From positions 1-64,000 of the IMG/VR virus record IMGVR_UViG_3300027870_000001: DNA of 64,000 bases. The stretch is one strand, 5' to 3'. Below, piece after piece: positions 15,131-60,029 of this stretch. The position numbers were made by a program, and so were the translations under genes. Origin of the DNA: a virus. A model generated the notes under the pieces. It was not told where the DNA came from and did not search any database. It worked only from the letters and a program-made list of their open reading frames with translations. Within the stretch, counting starts at the first letter, position 1. Every line of letters begins with the position of its first letter.

Positions 15131-15796
15131 TCAGACGAGGGACGGCACCGTGACGTCGCCGTCCTGGCGGAGCAACTGGTCGAACGTCGCGGTGTCCATG
15201 TAGAACGCGCCGCTCATCCCCCACGAGGCGCCCCAACTGTTGAGGAACCGCCACCGACCGGCCCCGCGCTGGTCGTACCCCGTGCACACGTACTCGTGGC
15301 CACCGACGACCCTGCCACCGAGGTGGACGTGGTGGCCGGCGTCCGGGGTGAACATCTCGTCATACCAGTCGGTGCCGACGAGGAACGGGCCCTTGGCGAT
15401 CGCCCCGATGGCGTGCTCCAGACCGAAGGCGTGGGTGAACGACTTGATGAGCCCCGCCTGTCGAGCGGCCTTGCAGACCGCGAGCCCGGACCCTCCCGGA
15501 TCACCCGGCGGGTACACCGGCCCGCCCTGGAGGATCGTCTCGGCGTGGTAGAGCGCGAGAGCATCGGCCTCGGTGACCCGCAGGCCCTTGGCGAACCCGG
15601 GAGCGGTCATCCTCCACTGCTCCAGAGCGTTCGCAGTGCACGACCCGACGTCGCCCTGGTCGAGGACCCCGCCGTAGTGCCGCCACGACACGACCTTCGC
15701 GGTCGCGGTCGGGGCCGGGAACGCCCGGGACCTCTCGTCGTGATCAACGCGCCGGCCGAGGAGATGGTCACCGAGAACGAGAGGCATGACGCCCAT
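15131..15796 (-). CDS. Papain-like (C1) cysteine protease
   Basis: LDQGDVGSCTAN, GGHEY, NSWGASWG; start is 15796 or 15787. Confidence 0.8.
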   Translation of the reverse strand: MGVMPLVLGDHLLGRRVDHDERSRAFPAPTATAKVVSWRHYGGVLDQGDVGSCTANALEQWRMTAPGFAKGLRVTEADALALYHAETILQGGPVYPPGDPGGSGLAVCKAARQAGLIKSFTHAFGLEHAIGAIAKGPFLVGTDWYDEMFTPDAGHHVHLGGRVVGGHEYVCTGYDQRGAGRWRFLNSWGASWGMSGAFYMDTATFDQLLRQDGDVTVPSLV

Positions 15797-15968
15797 GATC
15801 GCAGACGCCCCCCACCGCGACCGCGACCATCCGCGCTTCGCGTCCGGGCCGCAACTACCTTCCCGACTGCGACGACGACCAGGGAGAGGGTTCATGGGCC
15901 AATCGGCCGGATCACCCGCCACCGACGACCAGCAACCCGCTGGGCCGAGGCGATGCACGGACGGGACG

Positions 15969-42153: not shown

Positions 42154-42176
42154 ACTGTCGCCGGAACAGGTAGCAT
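42154..42176 (+). promoter_or_regulatory. Variant dyad promoter element (-10 TAGCAT) driving a small RNA
   Basis: ACTGTCGCCGGAACAGGTAGCAT. Confidence 0.65.
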
Positions 42177-42180
42177 CGGA

Positions 42181-42277
42181 GAGCTGGTGGGAGTGAGTGA
42201 ACAACTGCCCGCCCGTGGAGACACTGGCATCCCAGCCCGCAAGGGGTTGGAGTGGACAGCACTACTCCCGCCAGCTC
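42181..42277 (+). ncRNA. Putative structured small RNA (~97 nt)
   Basis: Ends pair (GAGCTGGTGGGAGT-G-AGTG with CACT-ACTCCCGCCAGCTC); two inner hairpins with GAGA and GCAA tetraloops; own promoter and terminator. Confidence 0.65.
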
Positions 42278-42290
42278 ACCCCAGGAACGA

Positions 42291-42326
42291 CGAAGGCCCC
42301 GGGGGTCGCACGGTCCGGGGCCTTCG
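42291..42326. terminator. Hairpin terminator between convergent units
   Basis: CGAAGGCCCCGG/CCGGGGCCTTCG 12-bp stem. Confidence 0.7.
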
Positions 42327-42357
42327 GTCGATGTCCGCTGTGGACGGTAGCTGGCGG

Positions 42358-54038: not shown

Positions 54039-54680
54039 GTGCTGAACCGCGACCCGGCGAAGAACCGGGCATGGCAGGACCGCAGCCGTGCTCGGGCCCG
54101 CGAGAAACGCAACGCTCGACCTGGGGTCGAGGGTCAACCTCACGTCGACATCGAACCACCGCCGACCCCGAAGCTGACCCGTCCGGTGCCGCCCCCTCCA
54201 CCACGGCCGACCGATGTCGAGCCGGTGGCCAAGCTGTTCACCGACGCCGACACCCAACCCCGCGACGTGGTCCGCGCCGAACGGATCTCCATCGACCGGG
54301 TGTGCCAGGCCCGCGGGTTCACGACGGTGCCGTGCGACCGTGGCCAGGAGGTCGACGAGATGCAAGGCCGAGGCCGGCGACCGGGGTCGGAGCTGGTCCT
54401 CGCTGAGACGCAGCTCCTGTGCCACACCTGCCACGCGCTCAAGACCCGTCACCCGCGGATGGCCGGGCTGCTCGGCCTGTACGGGCCGGTCGAGCAGGAA
54501 CGGCGGATCACGGTCGAGGGCCGCGACAAGGTGGAGGAGGCGCTCGTCGAGTGGGTGCGCCGGAAGTCGACGGCGAGGGGGATCGACGCGGGGTCCCCGG
54601 TGTGGTCGGGGGTGGTCGGGTTGGCGGTGCGACGGGACGCGACCGGGGTGTTGGCGTTGATCGCTCCGCAGGTTGCGTGA
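54039..54680 (+). CDS. HNH-like Zn-binding protein (degenerate)
   Basis: CQARG....C..GQEVDE...QLLCHTCHALKT. Confidence 0.55.
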   Translation: MLNRDPAKNRAWQDRSRARAREKRNARPGVEGQPHVDIEPPPTPKLTRPVPPPPPRPTDVEPVAKLFTDADTQPRDVVRAERISIDRVCQARGFTTVPCDRGQEVDEMQGRGRRPGSELVLAETQLLCHTCHALKTRHPRMAGLLGLYGPVEQERRITVEGRDKVEEALVEWVRRKSTARGIDAGSPVWSGVVGLAVRRDATGVLALIAPQVA

Positions 54681-54701
54681 CTGTCGCCCGTTGGCTACAG
54701 T
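54680..54701 (+). promoter_or_regulatory. Dyad promoter element, -35 TTGCGT, driving a small RNA
   Basis: ACTGTCGCCCGTTGGCTACAGT. Confidence 0.85.
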
Positions 54702-54706
54702 CATTG

Positions 54707-54821
54707 GTGCCCCCCCACTTCCGCCGGTGGGGTGCGGGCGACGGCATCGGATCCACCTCACCCGCCGAGGTGGACGATGTCACTGAGGGTGCCCCCGGTT
54801 GATACGGCCGGGGGCACCCTC
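54707..54821 (+). ncRNA. Putative three-hairpin small RNA (~115 nt)
   Basis: Two hairpins with CCGCC loops, then a 14-bp terminator-like stem GAGGGTGCCCCCGG/CCGGGGGCACCCTC; fills the gap between two promoters. Confidence 0.6.
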
Positions 54822-54840
54822 GCGAACCGGCACTTGTGCA

Positions 54841-58830: not shown

Positions 58831-58957
58831 GGTCCACGGATCGCCCCCCGGATCGTTCTGTGACGCTCTGGTGGCCGGGTCGGGGTCATCTCTGCCACCG
58901 CGAGGGGTGAGGGGCCAGGGGGACGCCGCGACGATCTCCCCGATTGGGGGTTGTGCG

Positions 58958-58980
58958 ACTGTCTCACGTCGTGCTACAGT
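58958..58980 (+). promoter_or_regulatory. Dyad promoter element, -35 TTGTGC, driving a large RNA
   Basis: ACTGTCTCACGTCGTGCTACAGT, with no start codon at +1. Confidence 0.9.
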
Positions 58981-58987
58981 CAGTTGT

Positions 58988-59463
58988 GAGGGCAAGCAAG
59001 CCACACCGCCCTCCAGCGCACCTTGAGAATCGAGAACCGGGCGAGGGTGAGACGCCCTCCCTGGGAGCCACGAGCTCCTCACCCGGGCGATGCGTCGCCT
59101 GGGGTAACCCAGCCAGGGATAGGCCAGGATGGAACAACAACACCGGCTCTCGATTCACAACTGCACAGATCGAGGACCCGGCCAACTGGCCGGCCCGTGG
59201 AGGCACCATCCACGTGACCCTGCGACCCTGCCCCTGACGGCTAACGACCACCAGCCACCTGCGAACGGTGGAGGAACCCTGAACGAAGGGCAGGCGAGGG
59301 CACACGGTACGGGTGAGTGAACACGGAGCACGGCCACGAGCCGAACCGAGGTAACCGGGGAGAGACGTCCGAACCGGGGAAGTAGGGGAAGCCACGAGCC
59401 AGCCGGCCAGTTCGCCGGGTCCTCGATCTACGACCTGCCACCGCTCCCGGGCGGTGGCAGCTT
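58988..59463 (+). ncRNA. Putative large (~470 nt) two-domain structured RNA
   Basis: Long stems 59023-59040/59143-59160 and 59167-59194/59402-59429; many inner hairpins; terminator at 59435-59460; no credible ORF. Confidence 0.75.
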
Positions 59464-59464
59464 C
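59435..59464 (+). terminator. Terminator hairpin
   Basis: CTGCCACCGC/GCGGTGGCAG followed by CTTC. Confidence 0.65.
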
Positions 59465-59475
59465 GCGCCCCGGCG

Positions 59476-59498
59476 ACTGTCGCCCGTCATGCTACGGT
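59476..59498 (+). promoter_or_regulatory. Dyad promoter element, leaderless ATG 59507
   Basis: ACTGTCGCCCGTCATGCTACGGT. Confidence 0.8.
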
Positions 59499-59506
59499 CG
59501 ACACCC

Positions 59507-60029
59507 ATGAGCAACCACCCTCGACGCCGAGGCCGGCCCTCCGCCGCAGCCAAGGCCAGCGCCTCCCAACGCACCCACCGCCGCGACCCCGCCCCCACCG
59601 AAACCGGCAGCCGAGGACAGGAAGGCCGACGAGTCGACGTCCTCTACGAAGGCCGCGTCGTCGGCTCCGCGATCCACGTCCCCGACCCGGCCGGGCTCAG
59701 CCCCGGCACCCTCCTCGACTCCAGGATCACCGACCCCGACCTCGCGATCCTCCTCGCCCGCGGCGAGAAGCTCTCCCTCACCGCCGACATCACCCCACCC
59801 AAGCCCAACGAGGGGAGCTGACGTGCCCGACCCCAACCTCGACCCCGCCTACCACGAGGAACGCGCAGCGAGGCTCCTCACCGACATCGAGAACGCCTAC
59901 GACCGGGACGCCATGCTGCGCCCGGAGAAGCGCACCGTCACCTCGGCCTGGGTCAAGACCCGGTCAGCGCGTGCCCAGGCCCACGCCACCCTGGCCCTGG
60001 CGCTCCGTCTTGGCAGCAAGGAGGCGTGA
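59507..60029 (+). other. Two hypothetical genes (59507-59821, 59823-60029)
   Basis: ORFs after the promoter element. Confidence 0.55.

What the first reader, a model, noticed from the sequence alone, without database searches (positions are those of the whole stretch)
58951..59464. Large (~470 nt) two-domain non-coding RNA with long processing-like stems
Seen: a full-consensus dyad promoter with no start codon at +1; a 5' hairpin GAGGGC/GCCCTC; and a boxA-like GCACCTTGAGAA. Domain 1 is closed by TTGAGAATCGAGAACCGG/CCGGCTCTCGATTCACAA (16 of 18 paired) and holds several short hairpins, including a GTAA tetraloop. Domain 2 is closed by a 28-bp helix with one C-C mismatch (59167-59194/59402-59429) around about 207 nt of purine-rich sequence. 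A terminator and the next promoter follow. This is the largest stretch without a credible gene in a very dense genome. Known: long closing stems and boxA mark RNase III-processed stable RNA operons; large phage RNAs (GOLLD, ROOL) and RNAP-binding RNAs (6S, Ms1) exist. Inference: a precursor for one or two stable RNAs of a class I do not recognise.
Basis: partly seen in the sequence, partly recalled or inferred. Interest (0 to 1): 0.85.

Follow-up and report, generated by a model that had tools for sequence, protein, structure and literature searches.

The report
Orphan promoter-driven non-coding phage RNA unit
A 676-base gene-free stretch of an uncultured high-GC freshwater phage sits behind one of the phage's own promoters and can fold into two domains closed by unusually long helices, so it is probably a non-coding RNA gene. 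No relative or expression data could be found, so its fold and function remain untested.

Summary
Window 58831-59506 is the largest non-coding stretch of an 86.8-kb, 70% GC virus record from a freshwater metagenome. It has no codon-position GC signal, no Shine-Dalgarno (SD)-led ORF and no protein-family or homologue match.

It starts with a full-consensus copy of a dyad promoter found about 30 times in the genome. That promoter normally sits 6-8 nt before a leaderless start codon; here there is none.

The 18-nt (16/18) and 28-nt (27/28) inverted repeats are real. The 28-nt pair is the longest inverted repeat in the genome.

Two cautions apply:
- Almost all the excess folding energy (z -7.2) comes from those two repeats and the 3' hairpin. 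The 207-nt purine-rich interior of domain 2 folds no better than shuffles (z +0.55).
- The helices contain no G-U pairs, so they do not distinguish RNA structure from DNA structure.

No Rfam family matches. No homologue was found in phage, plasmid, IMG/VR, JGI or GTDB searches, so covariation could not be tested. No RNA run holds the sequence.

Best reading (about 0.5): a stand-alone phage ncRNA of about 470 nt, probably cut by RNase III. The loosest analogue is the roughly 500-nt Pleft RNA of cluster A mycobacteriophages. Rivals are a transcription-primed origin, an antitermination leader, or inert or mobile DNA.

Other readers of this scan flagged the same stretch; nothing similar turned up on other DNA.

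The parts
58951..58981 (+). Dyad promoter: -35-like TTGTGC 58951-58956, dyad GACTGT/ACAGTC, -10 TACAGT 58975-58980. The predicted +1 is G58988.
   Evidence: One of about 30 + strand copies; the others counted sit 6-8 nt before a start codon. There is a 38-nt exact match to 73138-73175.
58988..59013 (+). 5'-terminal hairpin GAGGGC/GCCCUC with a 14-nt loop, starting at the predicted +1.
   Evidence: Read directly from the sequence. It is thermodynamically weak, z 0.19.
59018..59029 (+). BoxA-like word GCACCUUGAGAA, overlapping the 5' strand of the domain 1 helix.
   Evidence: TTGAGAA occurs only twice on the + strand of the 86.8-kb genome. The actinobacterial rrn boxA read is TTTGAGAAC.
59023..59160 (+). 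Domain 1: an 18-nt closing helix (16/18) around four hairpins. These include one with a U-G pair (59043-59059), the first CACGA pentaloop hairpin (59064-59078), and a UGCG-loop hairpin with one G-U pair (59082-59103).
   Evidence: Domain z is -5.6 (+) and -5.0 (-); the interior alone is -1.9 (+) and -0.5 (-).
59167..59429 (+). Domain 2: a 28-nt closing helix (27/28, one C-C mismatch) around a 207-nt A-rich, U-poor interior (A 26%, U 8%). Each arm can also form a small local hairpin (CCGGCC-AACU-GGCCGG).
   Evidence: The interior z is +0.55 (+) and +0.09 (-).
59067..59075 (+). GCCACGAGC copy 1. The loop CACGA sits on a 5-6 bp stem.
   Evidence: All three genome-wide copies of this 9-mer lie in this unit on the + strand.
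59333..59341 (+). GCCACGAGC copy 2. The loop CACGA sits on a 4-bp stem.
59391..59399 (+). GCCACGAGC copy 3. Only 2 flanking pairs are possible.
59435..59460 (+). Terminal hairpin with a 10-bp perfect stem and no U-tract. It is a putative 3' end or stabiliser.
   Evidence: I6; -23.9 kcal/mol, z -3.7; one search finds no canonical terminator.
59469..59509 (+). The next promoter copy and the leaderless ATG (59507) of a 104-aa orphan protein with an Arg-rich N-terminus.
42154..42335 (+). Possibly related unit: a degenerate promoter copy, a roughly 100-nt Y-shaped fold and a strong hairpin. It shares two genome-unique words with domain 2.
   Evidence: Local alignment score 32 against shuffles of 19.9 +/- 2.2 (0 of 300). 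The words are unique to the two loci. Fold z -5.3.

Best explanation
This is a stand-alone non-coding transcription unit of an orphan, high-GC, probably actinobacterial lytic phage.

**Proposed mechanism**
1. Host RNA polymerase starts at about G58988 from a consensus copy of the phage's repeated promoter.
2. It transcribes about 470 nt to the hairpin at 59435-59460.
3. The RNA folds into a 138-nt multi-hairpin domain and a 263-nt domain, each closed by a long-range helix of 18 and 28 bp.
4. Host RNase III probably cuts these helices, releasing one or two smaller species.
5. The product would act in trans as a decoy or scaffold. It would offer CACGA-loop hairpins and a long purine-rich, weakly paired loop to a host or phage RNA-binding factor.

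**Shown:** non-coding status, the promoter copy, the inverted repeats and the terminal hairpin.

**Inferred:** transcription, processing, stability, and the trans-acting decoy or scaffold role. The role itself is a guess.
For: - **Promoter.** The motif occurs about 30 times, all on the + strand, at a fixed distance before start codons. This copy is full consensus but has no start codon in register.
- **No coding signal.** Nothing by GC3, SD-ORF scan, Pfam, PHROGs or exhaustive HMMER.
- **Unit boundaries.** It ends in a strong hairpin 9 nt before the next promoter.
- **Overall fold.** z -7.2 on +, -4.9 on -.
- **+ strand-specific details.** U-G and G-U pairs in two domain 1 hairpins, a UGCG loop, and a domain 1 interior z of -1.9 (+) against -0.5 (-).
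- **Repeated motif.** GCCACGAGC occurs three times in the genome, all here and all on the + strand; two copies have clear hairpin presentation.
- **Composition.** A-rich and U-poor relative to the genome.
- **Second unit.** A promoter-associated non-coding element at 42.15 kb shares two unique words with this one.
- **Precedent.** Cluster A mycobacteriophages make an abundant, stable, processed non-coding RNA of about 500 nt directly from an early promoter (PMC5712189).
Against: - No homologue was found anywhere searched, so no helix is supported by covariation.
- No expression data are available.
- The long helices have no G-U pairs. The 18-nt helix would in fact pair slightly better on the - strand, where the A-C mismatch becomes G-U.
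- The domain 2 interior is no more stable than shuffles.
- A triple 9-mer is only moderately unusual: P about 0.016 in Markov simulations, and seen in 5% of genome windows.
- The hairpin lacks a U-tract, so termination is uncertain.
- Distant helicase relatives in IMG/VR (L383, L312) have a gene, not a gap, directly after the helicase.
Confidence: 0.5

Rival explanations
1. It is a cis-acting replication element: an origin activated or primed by transcription, of the ColE1 RNA II or T4 oriF/oriG and T7 type. An ORF-less promoter would make a purine-rich transcript that forms a persistent R-loop. The long inverted repeats and short direct repeats would serve as DNA-level sites for replication proteins.
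For: - It lies in the non-structural DNA-metabolism part of the genome, directly after an SNF2-type helicase and near an SbcC-like ATPase.
- It combines a promoter without an ORF with about 470 nt of non-coding DNA.
- The domain 2 interior is 61% purine on the transcript strand.
- The long helices have no G-U pairs, and the domain 2 interior has no RNA-level stability.
- Three direct 9-mers could be iteron-like.
Against: - There is no AT-rich unwinding element; the lowest local GC is about 40-50% over 15-20 nt.
- The 9-mers are 267 and 58 nt apart, not clustered in helical register.
- Cumulative GC skew shows no inflection here.
- No similarity to any plasmid or phage record.
- No recognisable initiator gene is adjacent.
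Confidence: 0.17
2. It is a cis-acting leader that modifies RNA polymerase, either as an rrn-like boxA or nut-like processive antitermination site or as an RNA chaperoning site. Transcripts from this promoter would then read through the U-less hairpin and downstream stops into the following operon.
For: - A boxA-like CUUGAGAA lies about 35 nt after the predicted +1. That word is rare in the genome and close to the actinobacterial rrn boxA.
- Pentaloop hairpins follow it.
- The 3' hairpin has no U-tract.
- The next gene encodes a 104-aa orphan protein with an Arg-rich N-terminus (RRRGRP), loosely like the lambda pL-nutL-N order. This last point is an inference.
Against: - The next gene has its own leaderless promoter and no SD, so a read-through transcript would translate it poorly.
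- The CACGA loop is not the GNRA-like boxB pentaloop.
- The boxA-like word is half of an inverted repeat and differs from the consensus.
- About 470 nt is far more than any known nut, put or boxA site.
- RGRP is also a DNA-binding AT-hook core.
Confidence: 0.12
3. It is DNA without a dedicated function, or a selfish insertion. Options are a decayed gene behind a duplicated promoter, a MITE-like element (28-bp terminal inverted repeats around 207 bp), or an invertible segment.
For: - The 28-bp near-perfect inverted repeats flank an interior with no fold excess.
- The promoter is a 38-nt exact duplicate of another copy.
- The unit is absent after the helicase in distant relatives.
- No homologue is known.
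Against: - It is single-copy in the phage. A 23-nt word from the repeat arm gave only two single chance hits in 185,579 species genomes, and each of those genomes holds just one copy.
- There is no clear target duplication; only AC flanks both ends.
- The record (96% complete) has no serine or tyrosine recombinase and no reverse transcriptase.
- No six-frame protein similarity suggests a dead gene.
- Domain 1, the terminal hairpin and the repeated motif lie outside the 28-bp repeats and are left unexplained.
Confidence: 0.13
4. It encodes a small protein. Candidates are the 84-codon frame from GTG 58986, read as a leaderless mRNA, or another short ORF.
For: - GTG lies 5 nt after the -10.
- An open frame runs to 59237.
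- This phage does use leaderless GTG starts elsewhere.
Against: - The spacing of 5 is outside the 6-8 seen at the other copies counted.
- GC1/2/3 of 0.62/0.68/0.69 is not the coding pattern.
- No homologue apart from two multi-stretch, low-complexity-like hits and no family.
- No SD-led ORF.
Confidence: 0.04

Closest known systems
Pleft non-coding RNA of cluster A mycobacteriophages (L5, D29, StarStuff; Dedrick et al. 2017, PMC5712189)
   Same: Both are about 500 nt of ORF-free sequence directly behind a strong phage promoter in an actinobacteriophage. The L5 RNA ends where most transcripts stop and is processed to 100-400 nt species. Its function is unknown. Its region also folds better than shuffles (L5, z -3.7).
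   Different: There is no sequence similarity (blastn against 50,697 phage records). The L5 unit sits at the genome end, not after a helicase. I have not examined it for long-range closing helices. Its abundance and toxicity were shown experimentally, whereas nothing has been measured here.
rRNA-operon leader and processing-stem architecture (boxA plus RNase III stems)
   Same: The order is the same: promoter, boxA-like word about 35 nt downstream, then long-range helices of at least 18-28 bp that enclose the body of the RNA.
   Different: The boxA-like word deviates from UUUGAGAAC and is itself part of the helix. The enclosed sequence is not rRNA, since cmscan finds nothing. Shared 10-mers with rrn operons are at chance level.
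Large phage-associated structured RNAs in Rfam (GOLLD, ROOL)
   Same: Both are phage-borne non-coding RNAs of several hundred nucleotides with unknown function.
   Different: No Rfam family matches even at E up to 10. Those RNAs are defined by extensive covariation, and none is available here. The core of domain 2 shows no excess structure.
ColE1 RNA II and T4/T7 transcription-dependent origins
   Same: Each has an ORF-less promoter giving a structured non-coding transcript of about 500 nt, with a purine-rich segment, in a replication context.
   Different: No origin features could be tested. There is no sequence similarity and no AT-rich unwinding element.
Lambda-type nut sites (boxA plus boxB) with the N protein
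   Same: A boxA-like word is followed by short pentaloop hairpins, and a small Arg-rich protein gene comes next.
   Different: The loop CACGA is not GNRA-like. The spacing and the size of the unit differ greatly. The downstream protein is an orphan with an AT-hook-like RGRP core.

Membership tests
Any Rfam 15 family (including GOLLD, ROOL, 6S, Y RNA, group I/II introns, riboswitches) | A covariance-model score at or above the family's gathering threshold. | tested here: not met
   No hit at gathering threshold in the window or the rest of the genome. In permissive mode only Proteo-phage-1 at 16.3 bits (threshold 42, E 3.7) and mir-724 at 15.1 bits.
Cluster A mycobacteriophage Pleft ncRNA | Sequence homology to the right-end non-coding region of L5 or D29. 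| tested here: not met
   blastn (word 11) of 58840-59500 against 50,697 phage records found no match.
Cluster A mycobacteriophage Pleft ncRNA | An ORF-free stretch of about 500 nt immediately downstream of a strong phage promoter. | tested here: met
   The L5 description is taken from PMC5712189.
Cluster A mycobacteriophage Pleft ncRNA | High abundance, stability and processing into smaller species. | not testable with these tools
   No RNA run holds the stretch.
rrn-like boxA / RNase III precursor | A boxA matching the host-clade consensus (UUUGAGAAC in the two actinobacterial rrn operons read). | tested here: inconclusive
   The sequence has CUUGAGAAU, sharing the 7-nt core UUGAGAA. TTGAGAA is rare in the genome. 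The host is unknown.
rrn-like boxA / RNase III precursor | A long-range helix of about 20 bp or more enclosing the mature RNA. | tested here: met
   28-nt arms with 27 paired, and 18-nt arms with 16 paired.
rrn-like boxA / RNase III precursor | Cleavage by RNase III. | not testable with these tools
   The phage has no RNase III gene of its own, so a host enzyme would be needed.
MITE / inverton | Terminal inverted repeats. | tested here: met
MITE / inverton | Multiple copies, a target-site duplication, or a cognate recombinase. | tested here: not met
   The element is single-copy. Only a 2-nt AC flanks both ends. No resolvase or integrase family hit.
Retron / DRT-type ncRNA | An adjacent reverse transcriptase. 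| tested here: not met
   PF00078 is absent from the record.
Lambda-type nut site | A boxB hairpin with a GNRA-like pentaloop a few nucleotides after boxA. | tested here: not met
   The loop is CACGA, and the first hairpin lies about 35 nt after the boxA-like word with another hairpin in between.

The most novel reading that the evidence does not exclude
The unit is the founding member of a new class of large phage RNAs that imitate an rRNA-operon precursor, with a boxA-like leader and RNase III-type closing stems. It would recruit or titrate host Nus factors, RNase III or another RNA-binding protein early in infection, displaying repeated CACGA-loop hairpins and a purine-rich loop as the bait. 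A smaller sister element at 42.15 kb would share the same recognition words.
Probability: 0.1. Interest if true: 0.8.

Novelty: new member of a known kind. Interest (0 to 1): 0.45.

Why it matters
Large non-coding RNAs made by phages are few, and most have no known function. A promoter-defined unit of about 470 nt in a lineage with no cultured or metagenomic close relative would add an independent example. It has an unusually simple and testable architecture: two domains, each closed by a helix long enough for RNase III.

It also shows that this phage uses its repeated promoter not only for protein genes that start directly at the transcript's 5' end. If the rival origin reading is right instead, the unit would mark the replication start of an otherwise unannotated phage group.

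With only one sequence and no expression data, this remains a well-defined candidate rather than a discovery.

Tried and rejected
**Homologue searches, all negative**
- blastn against phage records and plasmid records.
- nhmmer of the unit against about 370 fetched loci. These came from IMG/VR and JGI relatives of the helicase (at most 34% identity to it), relatives of helicase homologue P0002 (33-40% identity to P0002), and loci from a two-copy GCCACGAGC pattern scan.
- Promoter-word scans of IMG/VR (none, or single chance hits).
- A promoter pattern search in 401 Actinomycetota genomes.
- The unit as DNA against 401 genomes of the class of an Ilumatobacteraceae MAG. This gave only 24-63 nt matches at chance level.
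- A 23-nt word from the helix arm in genome contigs. It gave two chance hits, one of them an ordinary terminator hairpin.

The Logan contigs of the closest helicase relatives (P0002-P0006, 40-48% identity) therefore could not be fetched.
- Sequencing runs: one DNA holder, probably the source sample, and no RNA holder listed.
- Laying that run's contigs on the unit showed no variants and no strand-changing joints. Contigs cannot show minor forms.

**Ideas tested and dropped**
- Antisense pairing of the RNA to the shared 5' ends of the leaderless phage mRNAs. The result was no better than random genome windows.
- An SD-sponge role. GGAGG occurs twice, about what composition predicts (my estimate).
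- rRNA mimicry through shared 10-mers. These are at chance level.
- A structural module shared with the 42-kb element. The shared words fold differently in the two contexts.
- Phage-encoded partners. RT, RNase III, Ro60/TROVE, resolvase and integrase are all absent.

**Uninformative**
- Neighbouring proteins: DUF4326, DUF2786, or no family at all.

Full report
**Context.** The window is the first 64 kb of an 86,791-bp IMG/VR virus record. The record is classed as linear and 96% complete, has about 70% GC throughout, and is held by one freshwater-metagenome run. Nearly all genes lie on the + strand. The nearest cultured relatives of the adjacent helicase are Arthrobacter, Gordonia and Mycobacterium phages at about 30% identity. 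The best relatives anywhere reach 40-48% and come from Logan assemblies. This is therefore an orphan phage, probably of an actinobacterium. It has no tRNA or Rfam hit and no integrase or resolvase.

The promoter at 58951-58981 belongs to a family of about 30 + strand copies of ACTGTC-N(9-13)-CTACAGT. In the copies I counted, the -10 TACAGT is followed after 6-8 nt (mode 7) by ATG or GTG, which implies leaderless mRNAs. The copy here differs at 1 of 31 positions from the one at 73146 and shares a 38-nt exact match with it. At the equivalent +8 position it has G58988 and the codon GAG. The only nearby start is GTG 58986, 5 nt after the -10. Its 84-codon frame has GC1/2/3 of 0.62/0.68/0.69, whereas real genes here show about 0.7/0.5/0.86-0.95.

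A sliding GC-by-codon-position plot loses all frame signal from the helicase stop (58830) to the next start (59507). No SD-preceded ORF of 10 or more codons exists. No ORF on either strand hits Pfam or PHROGs at E up to 1. The 97-aa ORF finds only two multi-stretch hits to much longer proteins among 1.84 billion representatives, which I read as low-complexity matches.

The other large gaps from my crude gene call contain ORFs with a coding GC pattern. This 676-nt stretch is therefore the largest non-coding region of the genome.

**The helices.** The repeat finder confirms two arm pairs: 59023-59040/59143-59160 (16 of 18) and 59167-59194/59402-59429 (27 of 28, 207 nt apart). A genome-wide scan shows the 28-nt pair is the longest inverted repeat within 700 nt, and the runner-up is 18 nt. 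Chance is excluded for the 28-nt pair.

**How much structure is there?** The 486-nt unit folds at -239 kcal/mol, with z -7.2 on the + strand and -4.9 on the - strand. Breaking this down changes the picture.
- Domain 1 with its closing helix gives z -5.6 (+) and -5.0 (-). Its interior alone gives -1.9 (+) and -0.5 (-).
- The 207-nt interior of domain 2 gives +0.55 (+) and +0.09 (-).
- The 5' hairpin gives 0.19 and the 3' hairpin -3.7.
- Against 288 windows of the same genome, the GC-adjusted energy ranks 11th.

The statistical signal is therefore the two long inverted repeats plus the terminal hairpin. Neither long helix contains a G-U pair. The A-C mismatch of the 18-nt helix would even become G-U on the other strand. 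The long helices thus do not distinguish RNA structure from DNA structure.

Evidence specific to the + strand is modest. It consists of a U-G and a G-U pair in two domain 1 hairpins, a UGCG loop, the better interior z, the promoter orientation, and an A-rich, U-poor composition (A 23%, U 10% overall; A 26%, U 8% in the domain 2 core; genome A 16%, T 14%).

**Repeated words.** GCCACGAGC occurs three times in the 86.8-kb genome counting both strands, and all three lie in this unit on the + strand. In copy 1 the word presents a CACGA pentaloop on a 5-6 bp stem. In copy 2 the stem is 4 bp. In copy 3 only 2 flanking pairs are possible. A triple 9-mer in 473 nt has P of about 0.016 in Markov simulations and is seen in 5% of genome windows, mostly coding repeats. 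The motif is therefore suggestive rather than decisive.

TTGAGAA, the core of the boxA-like word, occurs only twice on the + strand of the genome. It resembles the UUUGAGAAC boxA that I read in the rrn leader and spacer of a Streptomyces genome and the rrn spacer of an Ilumatobacteraceae genome. It is also simply the start of the 18-nt repeat arm. Other rRNA-like 10-mers (AACTGCACAG, ACGGGTGAGT) are at BLAST E 1.6, which is chance level.

**A second unit.** The local alignment scores 32 against 19.9 +/- 2.2 for shuffles (0 of 300). The shared words GTGAGTGAACA and GCCCGTGGAGRCAC occur nowhere else in the genome. The 42-kb element folds as a Y-shaped RNA of about 100 nt followed by a strong hairpin (z -5.3). 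The shared words fold differently in the two contexts, so they look like a shared recognition sequence or common ancestry rather than a shared structural module. This remains unexplained.

**Search for relatives.** Every route failed. In two distant IMG/VR relatives a gene follows the helicase directly, so the unit is at best lineage-specific. Covariation, the key test, could not be run.

**Partners and neighbours.** The record encodes no reverse transcriptase, RNase III, Ro60/TROVE, resolvase or integrase. The neighbours are an SNF2-type helicase upstream and, downstream, a 104-aa orphan protein with an Arg-rich N-terminus (RRRGRP), a 68-aa protein, a DUF4326 protein and a DUF2786/DUF7168 protein. 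An SbcC-like ATPase lies about 11 kb upstream, and a ParB-like protein and the major head protein lie further downstream. The unit therefore sits in the non-structural part of the genome.

**Interpretation.** The most economical reading is an independent non-coding transcription unit. It has a consensus promoter, an RNA of about 470 nt beginning at a stem, two helix-closed domains, and a terminal hairpin just before the next promoter.

By established knowledge, helices of two or more turns are RNase III substrates, so processing into one or two smaller species is likely but untested. The purine-rich, weakly paired 207-nt loop held by a 28-bp helix, together with the repeated CACGA loops, suggests a display or decoy RNA rather than a compact ribozyme-like fold. 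This is inference.

The nearest documented analogue is the abundant, stable, processed non-coding RNA of about 500 nt made from Pleft of cluster A mycobacteriophages. Its function is also unknown (PMC5712189). There is no sequence relationship.

I give the ncRNA reading about 0.5. The rivals are:
- a transcription-primed origin, 0.17;
- an antitermination leader, 0.12;
- inert or mobile DNA, 0.13;
- a small protein, 0.04.

**Verdict.** This is a well-delimited, probably transcribed, family-less non-coding unit in an orphan phage. Its interpretation is plausible but rests on a single sequence, and the label of a large structured RNA is weaker than the headline z-score suggests. Interest is moderate.

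Noticed in passing
whole genome, e.g. window 2682, 10511, 13582, 19387, 33103, 43003, 45120, 54841, 62944; G000 73153: About 30 + strand copies of a dyad promoter (ACTGTC-N9-13-CTACAGT) lie 6-8 nt before ATG or GTG, which implies a largely leaderless transcriptome. Many of these genes begin with the same codons (ATGGACGCACCC or ATGGAAGCACCC).
   Followed up: partly
window 42154-42335: An ORF-free element consists of a degenerate promoter copy, a Y-shaped fold of about 100 nt and a strong hairpin between convergent genes. It shares two genome-unique words with the finding (GTGAGTGAACA and GCCCGTGGAGRCAC).
   Followed up: partly
window 54680-54825: This unit was flagged earlier as a ~115-nt ncRNA. 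It has a GTG exactly 7 nt after the -10 (54707), opening a frame of about 33 codons with GC3 of about 0.77 that runs into the terminator hairpin. It may be a leaderless micro-protein gene rather than an RNA. The fold z is -5.9 (+) and -4.4 (-).
   Followed up: partly
window 59507-59821: A 104-aa orphan protein lies directly after the unit. Its N-terminus is Arg-rich (HPRRRGRPSAAAK), which is AT-hook-like or ARM-like. There is no homologue among 5.8 billion proteins. The identical protein is recorded on a second contig of 98,219 bp, so a longer assembly of this phage exists.
   Followed up: partly
window 58903-58949: A G-rich tract with four runs of four or more G lies just upstream of the promoter's -35. 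A CCCC-GATT-GGGG mini-hairpin abuts the -35.
   Followed up: no
window 15697-15714 / 15809-15826: This is the second-longest inverted repeat of the genome (18 nt, 94 nt apart). It lies inside a coding region.
   Followed up: no
L286 5957-5993 (Ilumatobacteraceae MAG, GTDB): An intrinsic terminator hairpin of a freshwater actinobacterial MAG shares 24 identical nucleotides with the 5' arm of the 28-nt helix. This is probably chance among GC-rich palindromes, but the family is a plausible host clade for a 70% GC freshwater phage.
   Followed up: partly
window 59092-59151: There is a weak, sub-threshold cmscan match to Rfam Proteo-phage-1 (16.3 bits against a gathering score of 42, E 3.7). It includes a shared AACACCGGC tail. 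I treated it as noise.
   Followed up: no
G000 76579-78423: A 614-aa ORF has a lower GC3 (0.76) than the rest of the genome. The window starting at 76501 has the strongest GC-adjusted folding energy in the genome.
   Followed up: no
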